A DNA stretch of 32,000 nt from Candidatus Heimdallarchaeota archaeon B3_Heim (GTDB lineage Archaea > Asgardarchaeota > Heimdallarchaeia > Hodarchaeales > Hodarchaeaceae). The notes under the pieces were generated by a model that ran no database searches, was not told the DNA's origin, and saw only the letters and a program-made list of their open reading frames with translations. The first letter of the stretch is position 1. Each line of letters opens with the position of its first letter. Positions 1 through 9,623 of this stretch are shown here, piece by piece. Made by a program: the position numbers and the translations under genes. Location: positions 1-32,000 of the forward strand of contig NJBF01000020.1 in assembly GCA_003144275.1 (NCBI GenBank), in the 5' to 3' direction.

Positions 1-154
1 TTACTTAAGAATAGGACAATAGCAAAAGCAGAAATTAAACATGGGATCAATTAATTAATTAGGCGAGGGCTTATAAACCGAGAAGTGAAACAAGATGTAG
101 CTCAATACAGGATTAGAAAAATTAAATATTGGAGGGGATATAACAAAGGAGAAA

Positions 155-424
155 ATGGGTAACTGGCGAAAAAAGTTTGAAGAGAGGATTATTGATCAAA
201 TCGAAGTAACAGAGAGAGATGTTATTGTCGCAGGACATGCTCATAGACATTTTCACAATAAAAAGCAAAAAATCATGTTAATTCCATCGATTAAGACATT
301 TTTAAGAGATCAACAACCACAGGCTGTAGGGTGTCTGGGTTTAGTAGGGTTCCATTCTGAAGTTAGGACAAATGATTGTGAAACAAAGATTGATAGAATG
401 GTTATTCCTCAAGTACTCATTTGA
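155..424 (+). pseudogene. C-terminal fragment of a calcineurin-like metallophosphoesterase (or a small stand-alone ORF)
   Basis: VIVAGHAHR matches the GHxH motif of metallophosphoesterases. The N-terminal DxH/GD/GNH motifs are absent, and there are stops in all three + frames between nt 50 and 100. An SD-like AAGGAG precedes ATG155. Confidence 0.35.
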
Positions 425-452
425 AACCAATCCATTTACAAATTCTTATTCA

Positions 453-3400
453 TTAAGAAATAAATCTCTCCGTTTGAAGCAAGAATTTCTCATTTTCCAA
501 ATCTTTGTTTAGAATAAAGATAAAATCGTCTAATGATTCCTTCGCGACTTCGTTCCCAAATTTAGGTAAGAAAATTAGTGGTGTATAAAATTTAAAAATC
601 AAATTCGTCCGTTCTTGACTAGTTGACTTATCAAGGCACCGTTTTAGACAATCACAAAGATGAGAGACATGTTTTTCGTGTGCCGTTGAAAAAGGCATTA
701 ACTCCCCTTGGTAATAGACTGAGTAGGGTAAGATTTTTGCATGAATTATCCTAGAGGATAATTCCTTCACAACCCAGCTATAAGGTGCATAATAAGGCAA
801 GTTGAAATCATCAAATCGTTCTTCAAATTGATCACCTCGAATCTTTTTCTCTGCAATTTGCTGAATCAGAACTAATCTGGATAGAATTCGACCTACCTCT
901 TCTAAATCAAGGTGAGATGATCGTCCAGGCTTGTCAGCAGAAATATGACTAAAAATGGGTTTGGCCTTATAACCCAGTCCCAGTTTGGCGTTCATTAATC
1001 TTAATCTGTTACGTAGTGTTCGATTAATGCTGTTTAATGCTGCATCAAATGGAGTTAATCCTCCCCGATAATCGCGTATTTCCTTATTTTTTTTCCAAAT
1101 AAGACGAGTGTAAGTTCTTCCGTAAGTTCTATCGTGAAAAATCATTGGATCCACTGGGTCCTGTATTCGTTGAGTGAATTCTCGAACTCCCTCTGCAAAT
1201 GGTCGAAAAATCCACCCTTCAAGAGCAGTTACTTGTTTTAATGAAAATTGTTCTGGATTGGAAATATATTTACTTAAATTACTAGCACTCCTATACAAAA
1301 TTCGTTTCATTCGATATGTTATTTGCTTACTGAAATGTTTTAGGTTATAAAATTCGGCTATTTCCACTAGGTATGCAGTGGCATGTAATGCTGATTGAAC
1401 TAGCCCTAATAGATGCATTTGTTGTAAGGATGATCTAACCTCTGGCAAACTAATCGCTTTGAGTATATCTTCACTAGGTTCCTTTAGAACTCCTTTCGTC
1501 GAAATATAAAAAACATCGATGTTCCATTGTTTTAGTAGTTTCGTTAAACGCGGTTTTCCTATATTGATAACAGAAGAAATTTTATATAACGGATATTTTT
1601 CAGGTTTTCGTTTTCTATATCGTTGTAGCCACAGAAATGGGATAATTCCTGTATGTTTCTTGATGGTTACCTGATCTTCTGGACGAAGAACAAGGTGGCG
1701 AGAGCGATAGTTGAATGAAAGATGATGAAAAGTATCTGCAAGTTCAAGAATCAGATCATTCAGTTTCCAAGTATCAATGATATGGGGAACAGTTAAATCT
1801 AGAGTTCTTTGCAGCTCTCCTTCTTCATTGGAGATTCTTAAAACCTGAACATGTCTTCCATAATGCAAGCGATCAGTCTCTTTGATTTTAACATAGTTGG
1901 ATCCCTTTATCATTCCAAAGTATTCTGATGCTGTCTTCAGATGTAATTTTTGCTCTTCTCGAATCGGAAATTCTTCTCCGATTTGAACTTCAAGGGTTAC
2001 ATCTTTGTTTATTGTAGGATCTAGCTTATTTAAATCTTCTCCGATTATGGGTGTTTCGAAAGAGGGGCGCCATAAGGAGCAGGCTACCTTGGAAGAAAAG
2101 AAGTTACTCAATCGTTCTTTCATCATGGGAGGAATAAGATCTTCATCATAAATTGCCACTTGCTGGTAGAAAAGACAGTCCTTTTTCCTTCGATAAGTGA
2201 AATACGCACATTCACCGCAGTGCCGGTTTAAGAAACTAGTGTCAGGTAGTTGTTGATCTTTTTCTCTTTGATTGCCTGTGTGGATTAGCACTAGTCGTGA
2301 CTTAAAAGGATAGATTTTGATACTTTTGAAGTTTAAGCATTTACGAATTTCTGAAACACTTTGTACCATTGCATTTTTCTTTTGTGAAGAATATGATAGG
2401 GACTCAATATAGCTTTGAATCTCATTAAAGTCTCCTTTTAGAATTCTTTTAATCGAACGGATATATGTAAAAAAATTGACGGCTAAATCATCTTTATTTG
2501 CTTCCTGAGCGTATTTTCGTATATCGAAGAAAACTTCCTTCTCATGAATTGACCCAGGTTGTAAATATCTCTCCATCCAATGATTAAGGTCTGAAAGAAC
2601 ACGAAGAAAGGCTTTCCCCCGATATCTTAACCGAGGTGTTTTGGGACGAGTTCTGAAAGTTACAGGTTCTGTTTCGTTGAGTTCTTGCAAATGGTGATAG
2701 AAATCAGGTCGTTCATCCTTTTCAAACTGTAAAACTTCTACTAGTATCTTATCGGCTCCTTCAATCATTGATGACGCATATTTCTGATATTTCCAAGCTG
2801 CTATTACTACCGATTGAAAATCACGTAAGTTGGTTATCGTAAAATTTATGCTTTTCGTTGTCTGAAAAAACCATTGTGTACAAAGGAAAAATAGTTTCTC
2901 ACGCTCCGAAACTGTAATTTCTGAAAGTGTATTGATCTCAAAGAAAGAGGGAAAGCTCCTTTGTAAATACGTCAAAAAAGGTAGGATATTCATTTCATTA
3001 AGTAAAAACCATCGGCCAAGTGGTGTTGTTTGATAATACTTCAAATCCAGTAATCCCACCAAACGTAAGTCGAGGATTACCTTTTCTATAGTAAGAGGGA
3101 TAGAAGTGTCAAGAACTATTTGTGTTAACCATGAGGAGTAAATAGAACAAATCCATTCGTCTTTCCTCATTCGTTTTTGAGTTGTGACCAACAGGGCAGT
3201 TAATAATAATTCCTGTATGTGTTCTTGTTGATTTGTGAGATAACCTATTTGATAGGGCATTGGTGAGCTATTTAGAAGATGGGAAAAGAAATTTTTTTTG
3301 ATGAGCAAAGGCTGTAAAAAGCATATTCGTTTATTTAAGTCAAAATTTCTAAGTAAATTTGAAAAGGAGATAAAGTTTTCTATTAGAGCGTGTAAGGATG

Positions 3401-4472
3401 TAGTAGTAATTTCGTCTCCTATATCAATAAAAATTCGATCAACTTTTGATATGAATTGAGTTAGTTGAGACTCAGCTTGAGCAAGTGAAAGAAAATGAAC
3501 TGAGTTATATGCATACTTCATCCTTGAATTATTATCAAAGGATAATCCGTATTCCTGTAAAAAATCCATCCAGATGTCTGAAGATAAATGATTGGAGATG
3601 ATTAAGAGACGTTCACGATAATGAAGGTGATAGAAAAGCAGAAGGGATAAAATAATTCCTCTTAATGCCTTCCAGTGGTTCCTATGACGTGAAACCTTTC
3701 TAATATGTTTAACAATATGACCTTTGTTTCGAAACGGAACAAAATCAGAAAATAAAAGTTGTTTTTCAGGTAAACTTCGATTTAAAAAGTCAATTCGATC
3801 AATAAGAGAGGGAGGTAGAGTGAGTTCATTGAGAAATGTTGCAGAGATCTCATCTAATGTAAGAAATTCCCAAGAAGGAGAGACATCCTTGGTTGGCTGA
3901 ACTCTAGAAGTCACAACTAATTCTTTGTTTTGGTGGTGAGCTAACCATTCATAGAAAGGTCTAGCATTGAGATTATCAGTGAGTATGATAGATTTCACGT
4001 TGCAAGAAAAGCTAAGTAAAATGTTATGAAGAAGAAGAAGAGTAGAAGAGAAGTAACAAAGGCGATCAGGTTTATACAGGATTATACAGATCCGACTGCT
4101 GTTTAAATCGATGTTTTGAAAAAAAGTATCTACTTGATTATAGGTAAGAGCGATTTTTTGGATAATATGATTTTCTCGCAAAGAAAATTTTGCCATGCGT
4201 AATGATGGATGATTTTTATTGAGATGGAATTTGGGAGAATGGAGAAGAAAAGAAAATGTCTTATCGATGCGAAGCTCAGAAGCAGAGAAAAGAAAACGTC
4301 TAAAAGCTTGTTTTTCAAAATTTAGGTCGTTCTTATCATATAAAAAAATGAACCGGTCATAATCTCTGCAGTAAGAGTCCAAAAAAGTCTCCAAATCAGA
4401 ATAAGCTTGATTTGCGTCCTGATTAATTAAGAGATCAATATGATTTGAAATGCTTGGGTTCATACTCATCAT
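453..4472 (-). CDS. cas1: Giant Cas1-domain fusion: inactivated Ski2/Hel308-like SF2 helicase (aa ~35-600), Cys4 site (aa 752-798), Cas1 integrase (aa ~930-1300)
   Basis: Cas1 N-domain signature PLYKISSVINIG..LTKLLKQWNIDVFYISTKG. Catalytic-domain motifs TALEG (E1085), PFDAALNS, LGLGYKAKPIFSH (H1176) and SSHLDLEEVGR (D1189/E1192), corresponding to the Cas1 consensus GLDPxxGFLH...SLALDLMEEFR. Confidence 0.8.
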   Translation of the reverse strand: MMSMNPSISNHIDLLINQDANQAYSDLETFLDSYCRDYDRFIFLYDKNDLNFEKQAFRRFLFSASELRIDKTFSFLLHSPKFHLNKNHPSLRMAKFSLRENHIIQKIALTYNQVDTFFQNIDLNSSRICIILYKPDRLCYFSSTLLLLHNILLSFSCNVKSIILTDNLNARPFYEWLAHHQNKELVVTSRVQPTKDVSPSWEFLTLDEISATFLNELTLPPSLIDRIDFLNRSLPEKQLLFSDFVPFRNKGHIVKHIRKVSRHRNHWKALRGIILSLLLFYHLHYRERLLIISNHLSSDIWMDFLQEYGLSFDNNSRMKYAYNSVHFLSLAQAESQLTQFISKVDRIFIDIGDEITTTSLHALIENFISFSNLLRNFDLNKRICFLQPLLIKKNFFSHLLNSSPMPYQIGYLTNQQEHIQELLLTALLVTTQKRMRKDEWICSIYSSWLTQIVLDTSIPLTIEKVILDLRLVGLLDLKYYQTTPLGRWFLLNEMNILPFLTYLQRSFPSFFEINTLSEITVSEREKLFFLCTQWFFQTTKSINFTITNLRDFQSVVIAAWKYQKYASSMIEGADKILVEVLQFEKDERPDFYHHLQELNETEPVTFRTRPKTPRLRYRGKAFLRVLSDLNHWMERYLQPGSIHEKEVFFDIRKYAQEANKDDLAVNFFTYIRSIKRILKGDFNEIQSYIESLSYSSQKKNAMVQSVSEIRKCLNFKSIKIYPFKSRLVLIHTGNQREKDQQLPDTSFLNRHCGECAYFTYRRKKDCLFYQQVAIYDEDLIPPMMKERLSNFFSSKVACSLWRPSFETPIIGEDLNKLDPTINKDVTLEVQIGEEFPIREEQKLHLKTASEYFGMIKGSNYVKIKETDRLHYGRHVQVLRISNEEGELQRTLDLTVPHIIDTWKLNDLILELADTFHHLSFNYRSRHLVLRPEDQVTIKKHTGIIPFLWLQRYRKRKPEKYPLYKISSVINIGKPRLTKLLKQWNIDVFYISTKGVLKEPSEDILKAISLPEVRSSLQQMHLLGLVQSALHATAYLVEIAEFYNLKHFSKQITYRMKRILYRSASNLSKYISNPEQFSLKQVTALEGWIFRPFAEGVREFTQRIQDPVDPMIFHDRTYGRTYTRLIWKKNKEIRDYRGGLTPFDAALNSINRTLRNRLRLMNAKLGLGYKAKPIFSHISADKPGRSSHLDLEEVGRILSRLVLIQQIAEKKIRGDQFEERFDDFNLPYYAPYSWVVKELSSRIIHAKILPYSVYYQGELMPFSTAHEKHVSHLCDCLKRCLDKSTSQERTNLIFKFYTPLIFLPKFGNEVAKESLDDFIFILNKDLENEKFLLQTERFIS

Positions 4473-4528
4473 TTCAAGAATAAAGGAGCCACCAGAGAGA
4501 AATGGAATGAATTCCTATTTTCCCATGT

Positions 4529-4553
4529 CCTTTGTGTTTCAAAGGTTTAAATA
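4529..4553. promoter_or_regulatory. Shared TATA box of the divergent cas1 / nuclease-RAMP promoters with an abutting inverted repeat
   Basis: TTTAAATA at 4546-4553 reads TATTTAAA on the minus strand. CCTTTG-n5-CAAAGG at 4529-4545 lies directly next to it. Confidence 0.4.
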
Positions 4554-4590
4554 CCCATATATGAAATGAATTATTTGACTACATCTCTTT

Positions 4591-5304
4591 ATGGAGCTAA
4601 TATGTATGAATTCAAAATTAAATAAAAAACTTTCCAATTTTTCCTCTTCAATAACAGACCAAGAATTAGCAGTTAAACAGCTTCTTCTTCACAACGATAT
4701 TTCCTTTGTTATGCATCAAAAACTTCATCTGAATGACCGTTACTATATTATCGACTTTATGATAAACAATTCTATTCTCTTAGAGTGTTCATTCACGACC
4801 ATGTACCGTGTCGGAGTAGCTCTTAAACAAAAATCCCTTCAACTTGAAAGAAAATATTCACAGCTTAAAACTACATATCCTAATCAGTTTTGGGTATTAT
4901 TTGAATCTACTAAACCTATCAGTTCTCAACTTTTAACTACTCTTAAACGTTTAATGCCTTCTGTTGATCAGCTCCTCACCTCTCAAAAGCAGCTTCTCGA
5001 AATCTATCGAATACTTAGGGCATCTCCTCAGAAATCCTCTCAGTTTAATTTTGCCAATCAACTTGATTTCTTGAAACCTAAGATAAAACGAGAAGAAAAA
5101 TCCACTTTAAAAAGCTCTTTTAGAAATAAAGGATTAAAGGAACATTCTAATATTTTTTTAAGAAAATTAAACAAAGTACAACTGTTTTCTTCTAATAATA
5201 AGTATAGAAATCAAGATTTATACGTTTTTAATTCATCTCCAACATATTTGAATACCGCTCATAACAAATCTACCGAGGTGAAAGCTCAAAGGAGGAAAAT
5301 TTGA
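4591..5304 (+). CDS. PD-(D/E)XK-family nuclease (DUF559/Vsr-like) with a low-complexity Lys/Asn-rich tail
   Basis: ELAVKQLL..ISFVMHQ...YIIDFMINNSILLECS fits the E...(P)D-x(8-10)-(D/E)xK-like core. Its stop codon abuts the next ATG (TTGAATG). Confidence 0.55.
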   Translation: MELICMNSKLNKKLSNFSSSITDQELAVKQLLLHNDISFVMHQKLHLNDRYYIIDFMINNSILLECSFTTMYRVGVALKQKSLQLERKYSQLKTTYPNQFWVLFESTKPISSQLLTTLKRLMPSVDQLLTSQKQLLEIYRILRASPQKSSQFNFANQLDFLKPKIKREEKSTLKSSFRNKGLKEHSNIFLRKLNKVQLFSSNNKYRNQDLYVFNSSPTYLNTAHNKSTEVKAQRRKI

Positions 5305-6039
5305 ATGAAACAAAAAGAAGAAATTCAGTATAGATTTTTCGAATGTTCTTTTCCTTTAAGTTACTGGGCAAAAGGAACGGATGATTTCAAAGCAGTATTT
5401 ACTCAAATCTCTGATTATATGTCTACTCTCGACCAATTAAATATTTGGTATAATAATAACCATTTAATTCCAAGACCTTCTTTAAGTAACTCAACTCGAT
5501 TGTTTTTTCTTGTCAATGAGTTAATCGTTAGCAATGCGCTACAACTGAAAGGAGTCTCAGGCGGAGATCCAGTAGATTTTAATTCTGATCTTGCCACAAA
5601 AAACCAATCATCTATTTTAAGAAACGAAAAATGTCTGCCTCGTCCAAAAAGAGTCTTATTAGATTTGAACGTTGATCGTCCTGAAATTCTAATTCCTCTA
5701 AAGCAGAAAGGGATCGAGATAATCCAAATATGGGACCTCATAGCCGATCTTGTACAATATGAAATTATTGAGACGTGTATTAACCAATACATTGATCTTA
5801 TAATCACTTCTAATACAAGACTCTTCACTAGTTCCGAAGAATGGATAAATTATCTTCTACCCCATCGGACTCGAATATGTTACATTTCTGAACAGTATTT
5901 AGCCAATCCAAGTCAGCTCACTGAATTAATAATTCAATCCGCTCACAGTAAAAAGAGGTATAAATCTCCAAATCGTCCAATATATCTCATAGAGCGTGCT
6001 CAACCATCCACTAAGCAATCTGGGGAGGATAAAAGATGA
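5305..6039 (+). CDS. Two-domain protein with a C-terminal DUF5615/Mut7-C-type PIN-like domain
   Basis: VLLDLNV..EILIPLKQKGIEIIQI...EIIETCINQYIDLIITSNTRLF follows the xLLDEN...L...G..V.....DEEI..A......IIT.DxDF pattern. SD GGAGG at 5291-5295. Confidence 0.55.
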   Translation: MKQKEEIQYRFFECSFPLSYWAKGTDDFKAVFTQISDYMSTLDQLNIWYNNNHLIPRPSLSNSTRLFFLVNELIVSNALQLKGVSGGDPVDFNSDLATKNQSSILRNEKCLPRPKRVLLDLNVDRPEILIPLKQKGIEIIQIWDLIADLVQYEIIETCINQYIDLIITSNTRLFTSSEEWINYLLPHRTRICYISEQYLANPSQLTELIIQSAHSKKRYKSPNRPIYLIERAQPSTKQSGEDKR

Positions 6040-6869
6040 AGACACGAAAAATGAATCAACACGCGATAATTCTTAAAGTCTATTGTTATACACCAATCTG
6101 TAAACCGTTGAATGGGTCGTTACCTCGATCTAATGCCTCACATATGCTTCGTTTAAATCAATACTCTTATAAATATAATTTTAACGGAAAAAAGGAGAAG
6201 AAAGAAGCGTCTTCTGTTCTATACTTCATCAAAGGAATCAAAGGAGTCTTAAGACATAAGATAGCTAATATTTGTATGAGTGCGGGACTTGATGTCTGCC
6301 ATTCGACTGATAAAGAAGTCGACAAACATGGTAATCGCCTGTTACCCGAAGGTTATCACTTACTTGGTAGTTGTGTAGAGAAAAAAGAATGTGTTCTTCA
6401 TCAGATATTTGGATCAAAAGGACATGAAGGAATTATTGTTGTTCAAGCTAATCCCATAACCTCGATACCTCACAAAACTGCTGAAATCTCTGGTCGTATT
6501 CAACAAGTTCACATCGCTTCTGAGAATAGAGTCAATTTGACCTATAATGGTAAAAGTGTTCAAGACTTTTCTGAACGTTATTTTTCAGGTAATTTTCATT
6601 TTGAGATCGATGTTACTTCTTGCACACCGTTACAACTTGGGTTGATCATTGAAGGTGCAATGAATTTTGATCGGCTAGGACGTGGGTATAATACTGGATA
6701 TGGACATGTTCAAGTAAATAAAATTCAACTCCTCAAACGTACCGTTACTAGGACTCCTGTAATGGATGAAAATGGATGTTTTATTGTCCAAAATCAAATA
6801 ACAGAAGAATCCCGAAATAAACATTTTCAAAATGCTTTGGAGGTATGGCAAAATGGAATTAACACTTGA
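6036..6869 (+). CDS. cas7: Cas7-group RAMP (Csm3-like backbone subunit)
   Basis: RAMP motifs: beta1 ILKVYCYTPI, helix IKGIKGVLRH, C..LHQIFGS, and C-terminal Gly-rich loop LGRGYNTGYGHV. SD GGAGG upstream; ATGA overlap with the previous gene. Confidence 0.8.
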   Translation: MKTRKMNQHAIILKVYCYTPICKPLNGSLPRSNASHMLRLNQYSYKYNFNGKKEKKEASSVLYFIKGIKGVLRHKIANICMSAGLDVCHSTDKEVDKHGNRLLPEGYHLLGSCVEKKECVLHQIFGSKGHEGIIVVQANPITSIPHKTAEISGRIQQVHIASENRVNLTYNGKSVQDFSERYFSGNFHFEIDVTSCTPLQLGLIIEGAMNFDRLGRGYNTGYGHVQVNKIQLLKRTVTRTPVMDENGCFIVQNQITEESRNKHFQNALEVWQNGINT

Positions 6870-7671
6870 AGGAGAAATCATTACTCCAATAATATCAAGA
6901 AAAACAGTATTCAAAGTAGAAAATTGTCGAGCAGTAATACTCAATCCTAAACGCAGATATATCACAAAATCCCACAAAGAACGAAGAATCTATCCTTACT
7001 CCTTTATAGGCTATCTTGGCAAGATCAAAGTAACCTATCGATGTCAAACATTTCCTCAGGTTAAGAATAAACTAAAAGAATTGTTATCTATCGAACATAT
7101 TGGGAGATTTTGGAGTGAAGGATTAGGGAAAATCAGTTGGTTAGCTGGATGGATTGGGTCACAAGCTAAAGAGCATAAAAAAACCCAATCTAGTCGTGTA
7201 AAAATTCGAAAAGGTCTCCCACATCAGCTTCCAGAACAAATTCAAAGGTTAATTCGGTATGCTTTGCTTCACGATTTTGTACATACTCCTAGACATAAAT
7301 CGAAAATCTATATCGAACTTCAAGTGAGAGATGTAGAGATACTCAAACAGCACCATGAAAACTCGGATAATGTCCTCATCCAGACGTTTCAAAAATATGA
7401 TCGACTTGCTGCAATGATGACAAGAAAAATCAGGTCTCCACGCACTAATCGGTATACTTGGGAATCAAAGAGCATAGTGGATTTTGAGCTATTAGCACAT
7501 GACATAGAAAGCTTGGATAATAATGTATGGAAGTTGTATTTGTATATTTATGAATCGAAAGAGTTACAACAATTAAATGAGAGTTTAAACTATGGACATT
7601 CGTCATTACGCAATCATTTACTCCTAATTGCGAATTTAATAGTGCAAGACTTTCTTAGAGGTTCTCTCTAG
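6853..7671 (+). CDS. cas5: Cas5-group RAMP fused to a Cas10-type (circularly permuted) HD nuclease
   Basis: N-terminal LTLEGEIITPI and Gly-rich loop IGRFWSEGLGKI, followed by YALLHDF, QHH, KYDRLAA and C-terminal SLRNHLLLIA. The start was moved to ATG6853 because of the GGAGGT SD at 6839-6844 and the overlap with the cas7 stop. Confidence 0.75.
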   Translation: MELTLEGEIITPIISRKTVFKVENCRAVILNPKRRYITKSHKERRIYPYSFIGYLGKIKVTYRCQTFPQVKNKLKELLSIEHIGRFWSEGLGKISWLAGWIGSQAKEHKKTQSSRVKIRKGLPHQLPEQIQRLIRYALLHDFVHTPRHKSKIYIELQVRDVEILKQHHENSDNVLIQTFQKYDRLAAMMTRKIRSPRTNRYTWESKSIVDFELLAHDIESLDNNVWKLYLYIYESKELQQLNESLNYGHSSLRNHLLLIANLIVQDFLRGSL

Positions 7672-7750
7672 ATATCCTTGCATCTATAAAGTCAGAATTC
7701 CGTTGCTTTATTAATGAAAAGAGAAGGCTTGGAAATAAAGTGGTAAAGGT

Positions 7751-7921
7751 TTCTGCTTAAGTCCCTGTAAAAATATATTATTCGGGGCATCCTTAAATGC
7801 ATAGGTAAATTAATGGTAAGTTTTAATTGCTTACATGACAGTGCTTCCTCACGAAGCAGAATGAATTATTGATTGAAAGTGAGTTGAAGAGGTATAATCT
7901 CGTTAGAACCCTCTTTCAAAC
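7751..7921 (+). ncRNA. Candidate structured non-coding RNA downstream of cas5-HD (speculative)
   Basis: Series of hairpins at 7787-7800, 7816-7834, 7842-7858 and 7884-7920, plus an ATTGAAAG octamer at 7872-7879. No expression evidence. Confidence 0.25.
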
Positions 7922-7978
7922 AGTACATACATTATAAATTATTTAAAAATGAAGTAGAATTCGTTACCAATTCCCCAT

Positions 7979-8911
7979 ATGTTTAAGGTTTGTGAAAAAA
8001 TGAAATGGACTGATCTCGAAGCGCCTAGAGCGGCTATGGCCACATTGAATCGTGTTTCGGGAATCACTTTGTGGGAAGAAATGGTACGAGACCGACGTGA
8101 TTTTTGTTTATCTAAATGCCAAAACAACAAAGTAGTAAACATGCTAAGACCAAAATGTACTGATCGTCGATATTTAGATGTTTTACTGCTGAAACGTGAA
8201 TCTAAGAAAAATATGCCTATGTTCTGTTACTCCCAAAGAATAAAAGGTTTGTTACGTTCCTTTCAAGAAGGAGGATTTCTGTTACCTGATGTTTACATCT
8301 ATTTAGATGATTACTGGAAGATTATCCACGAAAAACAGACAAAACCCCTTAGAACGGCTTCGGATTTCCTAAAGCGTACAATAATCAAGGGGAAAGAAGT
8401 TCTTCCAATGGGTAATATTGATCAGCTCATTGAAGCACATTTTGTACGAGGACAGATCTTTTGTCTCTGGCCAAAATTAGATTTATGTCTTGTGAATGCA
8501 CAAGAAACAAGCATACACAGTTTAAAAATGCTCCATTCAATCGTTGATACACTTACAGAATCATATGGTCTCGATGTAGACATGTTGATTGAAGGAAACT
8601 ATGTGGAGCTAAAATTTCAGAATTTAGTGATACGAAATTCTGTATCAGTGGAAGCTGAGTTAGAAAAATCACCAGCTTTTACTGGTTATTCTGAGGATGA
8701 AATTTGGGCTGAAATTAACTTGCCTTCGGACTTTGAAGAAGAAGGTTCTGATTTTAAGGTTAAAGATCTTCATCTGATTTTTAGAACGGTAGATAAAGTA
8801 GTTGAACTAGAAGAGAGCGGTACAACAACAGATAAACAAGATGAAGAAATGCTTCAGGTAGAAAGTCTCCCTATTGAAAAAAGCAAAGAATCTAATATCA
8901 GAAAATCCTGA
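7979..8911 (+). CDS. Hypothetical protein with an acidic C-terminus
   Basis: 310-codon ORF with no recognised motif. The start may be ATG8000. Confidence 0.65.
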   Translation: MFKVCEKMKWTDLEAPRAAMATLNRVSGITLWEEMVRDRRDFCLSKCQNNKVVNMLRPKCTDRRYLDVLLLKRESKKNMPMFCYSQRIKGLLRSFQEGGFLLPDVYIYLDDYWKIIHEKQTKPLRTASDFLKRTIIKGKEVLPMGNIDQLIEAHFVRGQIFCLWPKLDLCLVNAQETSIHSLKMLHSIVDTLTESYGLDVDMLIEGNYVELKFQNLVIRNSVSVEAELEKSPAFTGYSEDEIWAEINLPSDFEEEGSDFKVKDLHLIFRTVDKVVELEESGTTTDKQDEEMLQVESLPIEKSKESNIRKS

Positions 8912-8922
8912 TTACTGGTATA

Positions 8923-9318
8923 TTATTCCTCTATCGGCGCATTAAAATATTCTAAAACCTCTTGAAGGGAAATCTGTTTTTGTTCGCTTAGGATACGAGC
9001 CATTGCCATAGCGGTTTCTTTCCATGGTTCATCAATTCCATCCTGAATTGATAATTTCTGTATTTTTAATCTTTCAGTCATGATTTCTCTCTTTAATTCA
9101 CTATTTTCAAGTTCTAATTGTTTAATGAAGGATTTCATACCTGATTCAGCTTTGAATTGGTGGTTCCAATAAATATTCATTCTCCCGAACTTCTCCATGT
9201 GAAGTTTTTTTTCATCAACTAATTTTTTTAGATCGGCTCTAGTTATTTCAAACCCCTTTTTTTGTAGTTCAGCAAACGTGAAGGGTTTCTGCAATTTTAA
9301 TATTTCTGGGAACGACAT
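8923..9318 (-). CDS. Winged-helix + coiled-coil protein, Mnd1/Hop2-like
   Basis: wHTH wing LKKLVDEKKLHMEKFGRMNIYW, a heptad coiled coil, and C-terminal W-x25-F-x2-P. Start taken at ATG9318. Confidence 0.55.
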   Translation of the reverse strand: MSFPEILKLQKPFTFAELQKKGFEITRADLKKLVDEKKLHMEKFGRMNIYWNHQFKAESGMKSFIKQLELENSELKREIMTERLKIQKLSIQDGIDEPWKETAMAMARILSEQKQISLQEVLEYFNAPIEE

Positions 9319-9623
9319 CAGCAAAACAACACTTTAATCTTCTGCAGCTTTAATCTATACAATTGGTGCTTTTCTAGTTAATTTTTATTTATTTTCTTGT
9401 ATGAATTGGGAATCAGATCCTTCCTGGTATTAATTTTCTTTATTCAAAATTTATAATGGAGATTTTCATATATGGAAAAAGAACCAAGGCATTAATAGAT
9501 AGCTGTGATGATAGAAAATATTCTATAAACCATATTTCATCATTAATCATATTTGGAGAATATTTTTCTGATTTGAAGAAAAAAATGTCTTCCTCCAACC
9601 ATTACAAAAGAGACCTGACAATA

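What the first reader, a model, noticed from the sequence alone, without database searches (positions are those of the whole stretch)
453..1700. Cas1 domain retains a complete integrase catalytic set despite extreme divergence
E1085 (LEG, codon 1218-1220), H1176 (FSH, 945-947) and D1189/E1192 (LDLEE, 906-908 onward) sit where E141/H208/D218/D221 of E. coli Cas1 lie. The N-terminal beta domain is also recognisable. With no cas2 or array nearby, the substrate is unknown. It could behave like a casposase (integrating the whole locus) or acquire DNA into an unrecognised repeat.
Basis: partly seen in the sequence, partly recalled or inferred. Interest (0 to 1): 0.8.

Follow-up and report, generated by a model that had tools for sequence, protein, structure and literature searches.

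The report
Divergent Cas1 of Asgard ARAMP cassette
The end of a 1,339-residue Asgard-archaeal protein is a real, very diverged Cas1 integrase domain with its catalytic residues intact, but it belongs to an array-less CRISPR-derived cassette ("ARAMP") that was named from genome analysis in 2020 and, as far as I could find, has not been tested in the lab.

Summary
ORF 453-4472 (-) encodes 1,339 aa. Residues 925-1339 (nt 453-1700) fold as Cas1: AlphaFold pLDDT 84; Z 20.3 to A. fulgidus Cas1, 18.9 to a casposase, and 6 for the next non-Cas1 fold. No sequence library detects it. A two-step profile chain, through Pfam-positive helicase-Cas1 fusions of other Asgard genomes, maps E1085/H1176/D1189/E1192 onto E. 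coli Cas1 E141/H208/D218/D221. All four are invariant in 21 relatives.

The context is not unknown. The gene is divergently paired with a Cas7-like RAMP gene, an HD-protein gene and two putative nuclease genes, the published ARAMP layout. This scan has met ARAMP before on other genomes.

The 94%-complete genome has no canonical Cas1, no Cas2 and no CRISPR array, and carries a second, shorter copy of the cassette. The cassette lies in a roughly 25-kb defence island that sister genomes lack. I found no terminal inverted repeats, no target duplication and no PolB, so the casposase reading is not supported.

The N-terminal 744 aa look like a Hel308/Ski2 helicase without ATPase motifs.

Verdict: a new member of a known, untested kind, of moderate interest. 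In passing, I found conserved structured RNAs next to the HD gene.

The parts
453..4472 (-). Whole ORF, 1,339 aa: Hel308-like region without ATPase motifs, winged helix, Zn ribbon and Cas1-like domain (ARAMP-type Cas1 fusion)
   Evidence: ORF and translation. There are 22 homologues among 5.8 billion clusters and 27 among 1.8 billion representatives. The family was found in 17 of 400 Asgard genomes searched.
453..1700 (-). Cas1-fold domain, residues 925-1339
   Evidence: AF2 pLDDT 84. VIA Z 20.3 to Cas1 and 18.9 to casposase, with the next fold at Z 6. Foldseek best E 5e-8.
1503..1700 (-). N-terminal beta domain of the Cas1 fold (residues ~925-990)
   Evidence: Strands at model residues 26-91. 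These align to Cas1 residues 1 onward. The one direct hhalign stretch to canonical Cas1 falls here.
564..1472 (-). Alpha-helical catalytic domain of the Cas1 fold (residues ~1001-1303)
   Evidence: Helices at model residues 102-404. rmsd 2.9-3.1 over 251-259 residues to 8d3p_A and 7kft_D.
1218..1220 (-). E1085, equivalent to E. coli Cas1 E141
   Evidence: invariant.
945..947 (-). H1176, equivalent to E. coli Cas1 H208
   Evidence: invariant.
897..908 (-). D1189-L-E-E1192, equivalent to E. coli Cas1 D218 and D221
   Evidence: D1189, E1191 and E1192 are invariant.
2079..2219 (-). Zn-ribbon-like Cys cluster (C752, C755, C766, C798)
   Evidence: Invariant cysteines. They align to the CxxC cluster of the helicase-Cas1 fusions. 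A second ribbon, present in most relatives, is missing here.
2253..4472 (-). N-terminal ~740 aa: Hel308/Ski2-like helicase architecture (RecA-like lobes, winged helix, helical bundle) without Walker A or DExH
   Evidence: AF2 pLDDT 73. The best Foldseek hits are the PolQ helicase domain, Brr2, Mtr4 and Hel308 at E 3e-4 to 3e-3. VIA gives Z 6.6-7.2 to helicase lobes and about 7 to winged helices. No ATPase motifs in any family member examined. Profile comparison with the active helicases fails.
4591..5304 (+). Cassette gene 1 (237 aa), possibly a PD-(D/E)xK-type nuclease
   Evidence: Conserved next to the fusion in 7 loci (cluster F4). The nuclease reading rests on weak Atlas leads only.
5305..6039 (+). 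Cassette gene 2 (244 aa), C-terminal half possibly PIN-like
   Evidence: Cluster F8 in 4 loci. Atlas structural lead, TM 0.7 by the hit but 0.38 by the query.
6036..6869 (+). Cas7-like RAMP protein (277 aa)
   Evidence: Pfam RAMPs 20.2 bits against a cut-off of 22.1. BLAST-cluster mates in other loci score 32.5 and 29.7 bits.
6832..7671 (+). HD-domain protein (279 aa), the ARAMP HD nuclease partner
   Evidence: Weak Pfam HD hit, 17 bits, E 0.007. Cluster mates in three other loci give the same weak hit. Cluster F2 has 10 members across 10 loci, always beside the RAMP gene.
7689..7773 (+). Conserved non-coding hairpin element just after the HD gene
   Evidence: Conserved in the G187 orthologous locus and in this genome's second cassette, with 6 compensatory pairs among 3 sequences. 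The loop motif occurs once in the window against 0 expected.
155..424 (+). Short ORF matching the C-terminal end of the 838-993-aa helicase/metallophosphatase-type proteins that lie convergent to the fusion in related loci
   Evidence: BLASTP against L042 and L041 ORFs. The contig begins at window position 1.

Best explanation
Residues 925-1339 are a genuine, catalytically competent member of the Cas1 integrase/nuclease superfamily. They form the Cas1 component of an ARAMP (Asgard RAMP) cassette, an array-less CRISPR derivative.

Shown:
- The two-domain Cas1 fold.
- The metal-binding and catalytic residues E1085, H1176, D1189 and E1192 at the positions of E. coli Cas1 E141, H208, D218 and D221.
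- Strict conservation of these residues across a small Asgard-only family.
- Fusion to a Zn ribbon and to a Hel308-like region that lacks ATPase motifs.
- Conserved pairing with a Cas7-like RAMP gene and an HD-protein gene.
- Location in a defence island.
- Absence of cas2, canonical cas1 and CRISPR arrays from the genome.

Inferred:
- The domain carries out metal-dependent DNA nicking or strand transfer as one arm of a defence cassette.
- The Cas7-like and HD proteins, probably with the conserved RNA element next to the HD gene, provide target recognition and a second nuclease.
- It does not perform classical Cas1-Cas2 spacer acquisition.
- In this subfamily it shows no sign of moving its own locus.
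- The stand-alone SF2 helicase gene that lies convergent to the fusion in related loci may supply the motor activity that the fused helicase-like region has lost.
For: Fold:
- pLDDT 84 model.
- VIA Z 20.3, 18.9, 18.8 and 17.9 to Cas1 and casposase, against Z 6 for the next fold.
- Foldseek PDB and AFDB return Cas1.

Catalytic set:
- hhalign chain at E 1.4e-14 and E 4.9e-7.
- All four residues invariant in 21 sequences down to 21% identity.

Homology to Pfam-positive fusions:
- P0043 hits DEAD, Helicase_C and Cas_Cas1 (36.5 bits against a cut-off of 22.3).
- The full-length alignment covers the Zn ribbon plus Cas1, E 1.7e-8.

ARAMP context:
- The RAMP and HD genes cluster with those beside the fusions in 10 loci.
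- Literature: (PMC8730458, PMC12669027).

Defence island:
- Type IIG restriction-modification methylase, IS, TnpB, metallo-beta-lactamase-fold protein and SF2 helicase lie between two core genes that are adjacent in sister genomes.

No canonical adaptation machinery:
-.

Helicase-like N-terminus:
-.
Against: - There is no biochemical evidence for any ARAMP Cas1.
- Spatial convergence of the four residues was not measured.
- The protein itself fails every sequence model of Cas1, so family membership rests on fold plus a two-step profile chain.
- The HD assignment of the partner gene and the nuclease readings of the two other cassette genes are weak, below curated cut-offs.
- The defence role is inferred from neighbourhood only.
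- The contig ends 452 nt beyond the gene. The C8-C38 join is inferred from synteny, so an unassembled repeat at that end cannot be excluded.
- In genome G041 the related helicase-active cassette is present in at least nine loci, which fits mobility better than a static defence gene.
Confidence: 0.62

Rival explanations
1. Casposase-like transposase: the Cas1 domain moves the cassette (fusion gene, RAMP, HD, RNA) as a selfish element.
For: - The catalytic set is intact and the fold is as close to casposase as to CRISPR Cas1 (Z 18.9 against 20.3, a tie).
- The cassette is present or absent at one site within the genus.
- In G041 the helicase-active relatives occur in at least nine loci. L015 and L016 share a discrete ~7.1-kb unit whose homology stops at the gene start on one side and at the RNA element on the other.
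- Literature notes that some Asgard Cas1 may belong to new mobile elements.
Against: - No terminal inverted repeats or target-site duplications around the window cassette or L015 beyond chance-level matches.
- No PolB.
- The variable segment here is ~25 kb of mixed defence and IS genes, not the cassette alone.
- G185 retains an HD-gene fragment at the same site, indicating decay in place.
- The two copies in this genome are only ~44% identical, so they are old paralogues.
Confidence: 0.18
2. Non-canonical adaptation integrase: the domain inserts captured DNA beside a repeat-like RNA gene, updating the RNA partner of the RAMP/HD effector without Cas2.
For: - The catalytic set is conserved.
- In the helicase-active relatives a 135-nt structured RNA occurs in 2-4 direct copies per locus, separated by variable stretches of about 90-135 nt or by the HD gene. 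It was found only next to Cas7-HD modules.
- A conserved hairpin element follows the HD gene in the window.
Against: - The window locus has a single element and no repeated unit.
- Model R1 finds nothing in this genome.
- The intervening stretches in relatives were not shown to be foreign-derived.
- Cas2 is absent.
Confidence: 0.12
3. The Cas1 domain is a non-catalytic DNA-binding or scaffold module retained for structure only.
For: - The fused helicase-like region has clearly lost its ATPase motifs, so loss of enzyme function has occurred in this protein.
- The second Zn ribbon is also lost here.
Against: All four catalytic positions, and many neighbouring Arg, Asp and His residues, are invariant across relatives down to 21% identity. 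That would not be expected without selection on catalysis.
Confidence: 0.05

Closest known systems
ARAMP (Asgard RAMP) array-less CRISPR derivatives with a distinct Cas1 (Makarova et al. 2020, CRISPR J 3:156). I could not read the primary paper and know it through PMC8730458 and PMC12669027.
   Same: - Asgard host.
- No CRISPR array.
- A highly diverged Cas7-like RAMP gene, an HD or other nuclease genes, and an unusual Cas1, all in one cassette.
   Different: - In this subfamily the Cas1 is invisible to Pfam and is fused to a helicase-like region without ATPase motifs.
- The effector genes are transcribed divergently from the fusion gene.
- Two extra putative nuclease genes lie between them.
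- I could not check whether the 2020 survey included this clade.
Helicase-Zn ribbon-Cas1 fusions of other Asgard genomes (P0043, P0044, P0045; genomes G041 and G058)
   Same: - Same order of modules: helicase-like region, winged helix, Zn ribbon, Cas1.
- Same partner genes (RAMP, HD).
- Profile match of the Zn ribbon plus Cas1 region.
   Different: - Those proteins have intact GKT and DExH motifs and reach the Pfam Cas1 cut-off.
- They are co-directional with their partner genes.
- They carry 2-4 copies of a 135-nt structured RNA.
- They are multi-copy, with at least nine loci in G041.
CRISPR Cas1 (PF01867; e.g. A. fulgidus Cas1 4n06, type I-C Cas1 8d3p, E. coli Cas1)
   Same: Two-domain fold and the E/H/D/D(E) active-site positions.
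   Different: - No Cas2 and no array.
- No sequence-model match.
- About 900 extra N-terminal residues.
Casposase (6opm) and casposons
   Same: Fold match of equal rank to CRISPR Cas1 (Z 18.9), and a Cas1 working without an array.
   Different: No PolB, no terminal inverted repeats, no target duplication found.

Membership tests
Cas1 superfamily | Two-domain fold: N-terminal beta domain plus C-terminal alpha-helical domain | tested here: met
   VIA Z 20.3 over 312 residues covering both domains. The top 12 hits are all Cas1 or casposase and the next fold scores Z 6. Foldseek best E 5e-8.
Cas1 superfamily | Conserved Glu, His and Asp/Glu metal-binding catalytic residues in the alpha domain | tested here: met
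   A transitive hhalign chain maps E1085, H1176, D1189 and E1192 to E141, H208, D218 and D221. All are invariant in 21 sequences. The 3D geometry was not measured.
Cas1 superfamily | Match to the curated sequence model PF01867 | tested here: not met
   No hit even at E 10 for the protein or its C-terminal 440 aa. None for 10 relatives. Homologous fusions P0043 and P0045 do pass, at 36.5 and 25.8 bits against a cut-off of 22.3.
CRISPR adaptation module (Cas1-Cas2) | Partner Cas2 and a CRISPR array | tested here: not met
   No PF09827 in the genome. No array in the window or in the assembly; the only regular repeat is an LRR gene. The assembly is 94% complete in 103 contigs, so an unassembled array cannot be excluded.
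Cas1 superfamily | Homodimer through the N-terminal domains | not testable with these tools
   No usable result was obtained; see Tried and rejected.
Casposon / casposase | Terminal inverted repeats and target-site duplication around the element | tested here: not met
   Only chance-level inverted repeats in 1-9500. The left end is close to a contig break, so the test is incomplete on that side.
Casposon / casposase | Family B DNA polymerase in the element | tested here: not met
   No PolB among the cassette genes or the island genes scanned with Pfam.
ARAMP | Diverged Cas7-like RAMP gene in the cassette | tested here: met
   Window gene 6036-6869 scores 20.2 bits on Pfam RAMPs, just under the 22.1 cut-off. 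Its BLAST-cluster mates score 32.5 and 29.7 bits.
ARAMP | Cas5-like and/or nuclease partner (HD, PD-(D/E)xK, HNH) | tested here: inconclusive
   HD hits are weak: 16-17 bits, E 0.007-0.013, recurring in four loci. A RAMP/Cas5 part of this protein was not tested. The PD-(D/E)xK and PIN readings of the two other genes are Atlas leads only.
ARAMP | Asgard host, no CRISPR array, distinct Cas1 in the locus | tested here: met
   Relatives are named Thorarchaeota and Hodarchaeales. All genome hits lie within the phylum sample. No array. Cas1 domain as above.
Ski2/Hel308-like SF2 helicase (N-terminal region) | Two RecA-like lobes, winged helix and ratchet-like helical domain | tested here: inconclusive
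   The best Foldseek hits are PolQ helicase, Brr2, Mtr4 and Hel308, E 3e-4 to 3e-3, but TM is about 0.2. VIA Z is 6.6-7.2, a middling range. hhalign to the active fusions finds nothing.
Ski2/Hel308-like SF2 helicase (N-terminal region) | Walker A (GKT/S) and DExH ATPase motifs | tested here: not met
   Pattern search finds neither in P0001. In 13 further family members there is no Walker A and no conserved DExH (a few scattered DE.[HD] strings). The active fusions have GKT plus DELH or DEMH.

The most novel reading that the evidence does not exclude
The helicase-dead Cas1 fusion, the Cas7-like and HD proteins, and the conserved hairpin RNA after the HD gene form an RNA-directed DNA integration or cleavage machine. 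It would work without Cas2 or an array, with a separately encoded SF2 helicase supplying the motor. That would be a Cas1 enzyme guided by a RAMP-RNA complex rather than by a CRISPR leader and repeat.
Probability: 0.12. Interest if true: 0.8.

Novelty: new member of a known kind. Interest (0 to 1): 0.35.

Why it matters
Cas1 is the enzyme that writes CRISPR memory and that moves casposons. ARAMP cassettes keep an apparently active Cas1 while lacking Cas2 and any array, so they may show a third way of using this integrase. I found no report of a laboratory test.

This locus adds three things:
- A clade whose Cas1 is invisible to sequence models yet keeps every catalytic residue.
- A fused helicase-like region that has lost its ATPase motifs.
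- Defined constructs and substrates for a first biochemical test: residues 925-1339, E1085A and H1176A controls, and the 7689-7773 element.

It does not change what is known about the kind of system.

Tried and rejected
Sequence searches
- Pfam, NCBIfam, PADLOC and PDB-sequence searches of the protein, its thirds and a family profile gave nothing.
- Direct hhalign of the family against canonical Cas1 gave prob 2% and only a 41-column stretch in the beta domain.
- Pairwise BLASTP to P0043 gave E 0.066, although on the right helix.
- hhalign of the N-terminal 744 aa against the active helicase region gave no match.

Structure prediction
- Complex prediction of two copies of the Cas1 domain returned no verdict. 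This is not evidence either way.

Repeats and mobile-element marks
- A CRISPR-array scan of the genome flagged only C93:6726-7171, which is a leucine-rich-repeat coding region.
- A search for terminal repeats around the cassette found chance-level matches only.
- I considered whether the window's left flank could be joined to contig C8. There is no sequence overlap, and the last ~90 nt of C8 are GC-rich and look foreign. The join rests on synteny alone.

RNA
- Covariance model R1, built on the 135-nt RNA of the G041 and G058 loci, has no match in the window or anywhere in this genome.
- Rfam has no match to that RNA.
- nhmmer with the window-type element finds only its three training copies.
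- An MFE fold of 7672-7800 is no better than shuffles, z 0.46.

Other
- Atlas look-ups of the 244-aa and HD proteins gave low scores only.
- The primary ARAMP paper (PMC7307682) is not held.
Full report
**What is there.** The window holds one long minus-strand ORF, 453-4472, of 1,339 aa. The window is the first 32 kb of a 75-kb contig, so the gene ends only 452 nt from a contig end. E1085 is codon 1218-1220, H1176 is 945-947, D1189 is 906-908 and E1192 is 897-899.

**Is it Cas1?** By sequence alone nothing says so.
- Pfam, NCBIfam, PADLOC and the PDB sequence set give no hit for the protein, for its C-terminal 440 residues or for a 22-sequence family profile.
- The family is small and confined to Asgard archaea. 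There are 22 homologues among 5.8 billion clusters and 27 among 1.8 billion representatives, none a canonical Cas1. It was found in 17 of 400 Asgard genomes searched.
- An AlphaFold2 model of residues 900-1339 built on the family alignment is confident, with pLDDT 84.2 and pTM 0.82.
- Against 48,161 PDB representatives the twelve best matches are all Cas1 or casposase. They include A. fulgidus Cas1 4n06_B (Z 20.3, 312 residues, model 26-404 on chain 1-345), casposase 6opm_A (Z 18.9), Cas6-RT-Cas1 7kft_D (Z 18.8, rmsd 3.1 over 251) and type I-C Cas1 8d3p_A (Z 17.9, rmsd 2.9 over 259). The next, unrelated fold scores Z 6.0.
- Foldseek against PDB and AlphaFold DB agrees.
- Both the N-terminal beta domain and the helical catalytic domain are covered. 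Model residue 26 is protein residue 925, which is nt 1700, the boundary given in the finding.

**Catalytic residues.** Direct profile-profile comparison with canonical Cas1 (14 Asgard Cas1 genes plus E. coli Cas1) fails. A bridge exists, however.
- A Pfam Cas1 scan of 151 Asgard genomes turned up about 1,350-aa proteins in G041 and G058. These hit DEAD, Helicase_C and Cas_Cas1 above the curated cut-off.
- The window family, widened with its most distant members, aligns to their Cas1 domains with probability 98.3 and E 1.4e-14 over 323 columns.
- Those domains align to canonical Cas1 with probability 92.5 and E 4.9e-7.
- Reading through both alignments gives E1085-E141, H1176-H208, D1189-D218 and E1192-D221 (E. 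coli numbering).
- All four are invariant in 21 sequences that fall to 21% identity, together with several Arg, Asp and His residues nearby.
- I could not measure whether the side chains converge in the model, because coordinates are not exposed.

**The rest of the protein.**
- The full-length alignment to the helicase-Cas1 fusions covers a Cys cluster (C752, C755, C766, C798), a linker and the Cas1 domain, at E 1.7e-8.
- A second Zn ribbon found in most relatives is missing here.
- The N-terminal 744 residues give a moderate model, pLDDT 73.
- Their best Foldseek matches are Ski2/Hel308-type helicases (PolQ helicase domain, Brr2, Mtr4, Hel308) at E 3e-4 to 3e-3, with low TM.
- VIA gives Z 6.6-7.2 to helicase lobes and about 7 to winged helices.
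- None of the 14 family members examined has a Walker A motif or a conserved DExH; the active fusions have both.
- Profile comparison with the active helicase region finds nothing.
- I read this region as a helicase-derived module that has lost ATPase function. That reading is likely but not proven.

**Context: a known system.** Divergently transcribed from the fusion gene are four tightly packed genes.
- 4591-5304 (237 aa).
- 5305-6039 (244 aa).
- 6036-6869, a RAMP protein scoring 20.2 bits, just below the cut-off.
- 6832-7671, with a weak HD hit.

BLAST clustering over 20 fetched loci puts the RAMP and HD genes in families that accompany both the window-type fusions and the helicase-active fusions. 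In the latter the RAMP hit is above the cut-off, at 32.5 and 29.7 bits.

This is the published ARAMP layout. Reviews describe ARAMP as array-less, type III-derived CRISPR-like systems of Asgard archaea. They are usually accompanied by nucleases, and most carry a distinct form of Cas1 (PMC8730458; PMC12669027). The primary paper (Makarova et al. 2020) is not held, so I could not check whether this clade is listed. Earlier reports of this scan reached the same identification on other genomes.

**Adaptation partners.** The 94%-complete assembly has no PF01867 Cas1, although 59 of 151 Asgard genomes sampled do. It has no Cas2 and no CRISPR array; the only regular repeat is an LRR gene. It does have a second, shorter cassette on contig C21, with a 996-aa fusion and the same four partner genes.

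**Mobile element or defence island?**
- The gene to the right of the cassette (7979-8911) is a core gene, found in 21 of 22 genomes of the genus.
- In four sister genomes it directly follows a large core gene. In this genome that large gene lies at C8:73190-77866.
- Here about 17 kb of C8 plus about 8 kb of C38 appear to lie between the two core genes.
- That segment encodes a type IIG restriction-modification methylase interrupted by an IS, a metallo-beta-lactamase-fold protein, TnpB, a 917-aa SF2 helicase and the ARAMP cassette.
- The C8-C38 join is inferred from synteny with G187, not from overlap.
- Homology with the empty sites resumes at about nt 7797.
- One sister genome keeps a fragment of the HD gene at the same place.
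- No terminal inverted repeats or duplications stand out, and there is no PolB.
- This favours a defence-island resident that is gained and lost with its neighbours, not a casposon-like element.

The helicase-active relatives are a partial exception. G041 has at least nine loci. L015 and L016 share a discrete ~7.1-kb unit of homology. Mobility of that branch stays open.

**RNA leads.**
- In the helicase-active loci a ~135-nt element recurs after the Cas7 gene and after the HD gene. It has a covarying hairpin, with 7 pairs showing compensatory changes.
- It has no Rfam match.
- A covariance model finds 25 copies in G041 and 19 in G058. Every copy examined lies next to a Cas7-HD pair, and there are none in this genome.
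- The window subfamily instead has a different conserved hairpin element right after the HD gene, at window 7689-7773. It is shared with the G187 orthologue and with this genome's second cassette.
- With three sequences this is a lead, not a demonstration.

**Verdict.** It missed that the locus is an ARAMP cassette. The casposase reading finds no support here. The thing is a new member of a known, computationally described and, as far as I could find, experimentally untested kind.

Noticed in passing
L015:2029-2165, 3440-3576 and 3711-3846 (-); L016:2345-2477 and 3451-3586 (-); L017:1291-1424, 2396-2529, 2621-2756 and 2881-3023 (-): A ~135-nt structured RNA-like element lies after the Cas7 gene and after the HD gene of the helicase-active ARAMP loci. 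It has a covarying hairpin plus a long-range helix and no Rfam match. There are 25 copies in G041 and 19 in G058, and every copy examined is beside a Cas7-HD pair. ORFs of 120-250 aa called over the tandem copies are probably not genes.
   Followed up: partly
window 7689-7773 (+); L042:12464-12552; G000 C21:72054-72132 (L041:6055-6133, -): A conserved non-coding element lies directly after the HD gene in the window-type cassettes. It is a hairpin whose stem changes by compensatory substitutions around a conserved 21-nt loop motif. Only nt 7672 to about 7796 of the 307-nt gap are island-specific; 7797-7978 is shared with sister genomes that lack the cassette.
   Followed up: partly
window 155-424 (+); G000 C8:91749-94502 (L052:15750-18503); L042:52-2568; L041:16146-19127; L031:17343-20434; L032:22076-22952: A stand-alone SF2 helicase gene lies close to the 3' side of the helicase-dead Cas1 fusion in five loci. 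It is often fused to, or next to, a metallophosphatase-type domain. The window's 89-aa ORF matches the C-terminal end of these proteins. This may be a conserved extra component that replaces the lost motor.
   Followed up: partly
G000 C21:72135-78335 (L041:6135-12335): This genome has a second ARAMP cassette. It has a shorter fusion protein (996 aa, lacking the first ~370 residues of the long form) and the same four partner genes in the same divergent layout.
   Followed up: partly
window 2079-2219 (-) and alignment A1 columns 933-960: This protein lacks the second Zn ribbon (CxxC...CxC) that is nearly invariant in the rest of its family.
   Followed up: no
L049:15702-15926 (G185:C1): A sister genome without the cassette keeps a 76-residue remnant of the HD gene (42% identity) immediately upstream of the core gene that flanks the cassette here.
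   Followed up: partly
L032:6604-9918 (-) and L043:12382-15696 (+): In G102 the short-form fusion is paired with a single 1,104-aa protein that has no Pfam hit and clusters with the window's 237-aa gene. It may be a fusion of the effector genes.
   Followed up: no
L031:7181-8389 (-): A TnpB (OrfB_IS605) gene sits inside the effector operon of the P0019 locus, and that locus has no recognisable HD gene.
   Followed up: no
G000 C8:94503-94593: The last ~90 nt of contig C8 are GC-rich, unlike the rest of the 35%-GC genome. This looks like a chimeric or foreign contig end at the place where C8 should meet the window's contig.
   Followed up: no
G000 C8:80962-85494 (L052:4963-9495): A type IIG (Eco57I/MmeI-like) restriction-modification methylase gene appears to be split by a DDE transposase insertion. 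The TaqI_C specificity domain is left as a separate 169-aa ORF.
   Followed up: no
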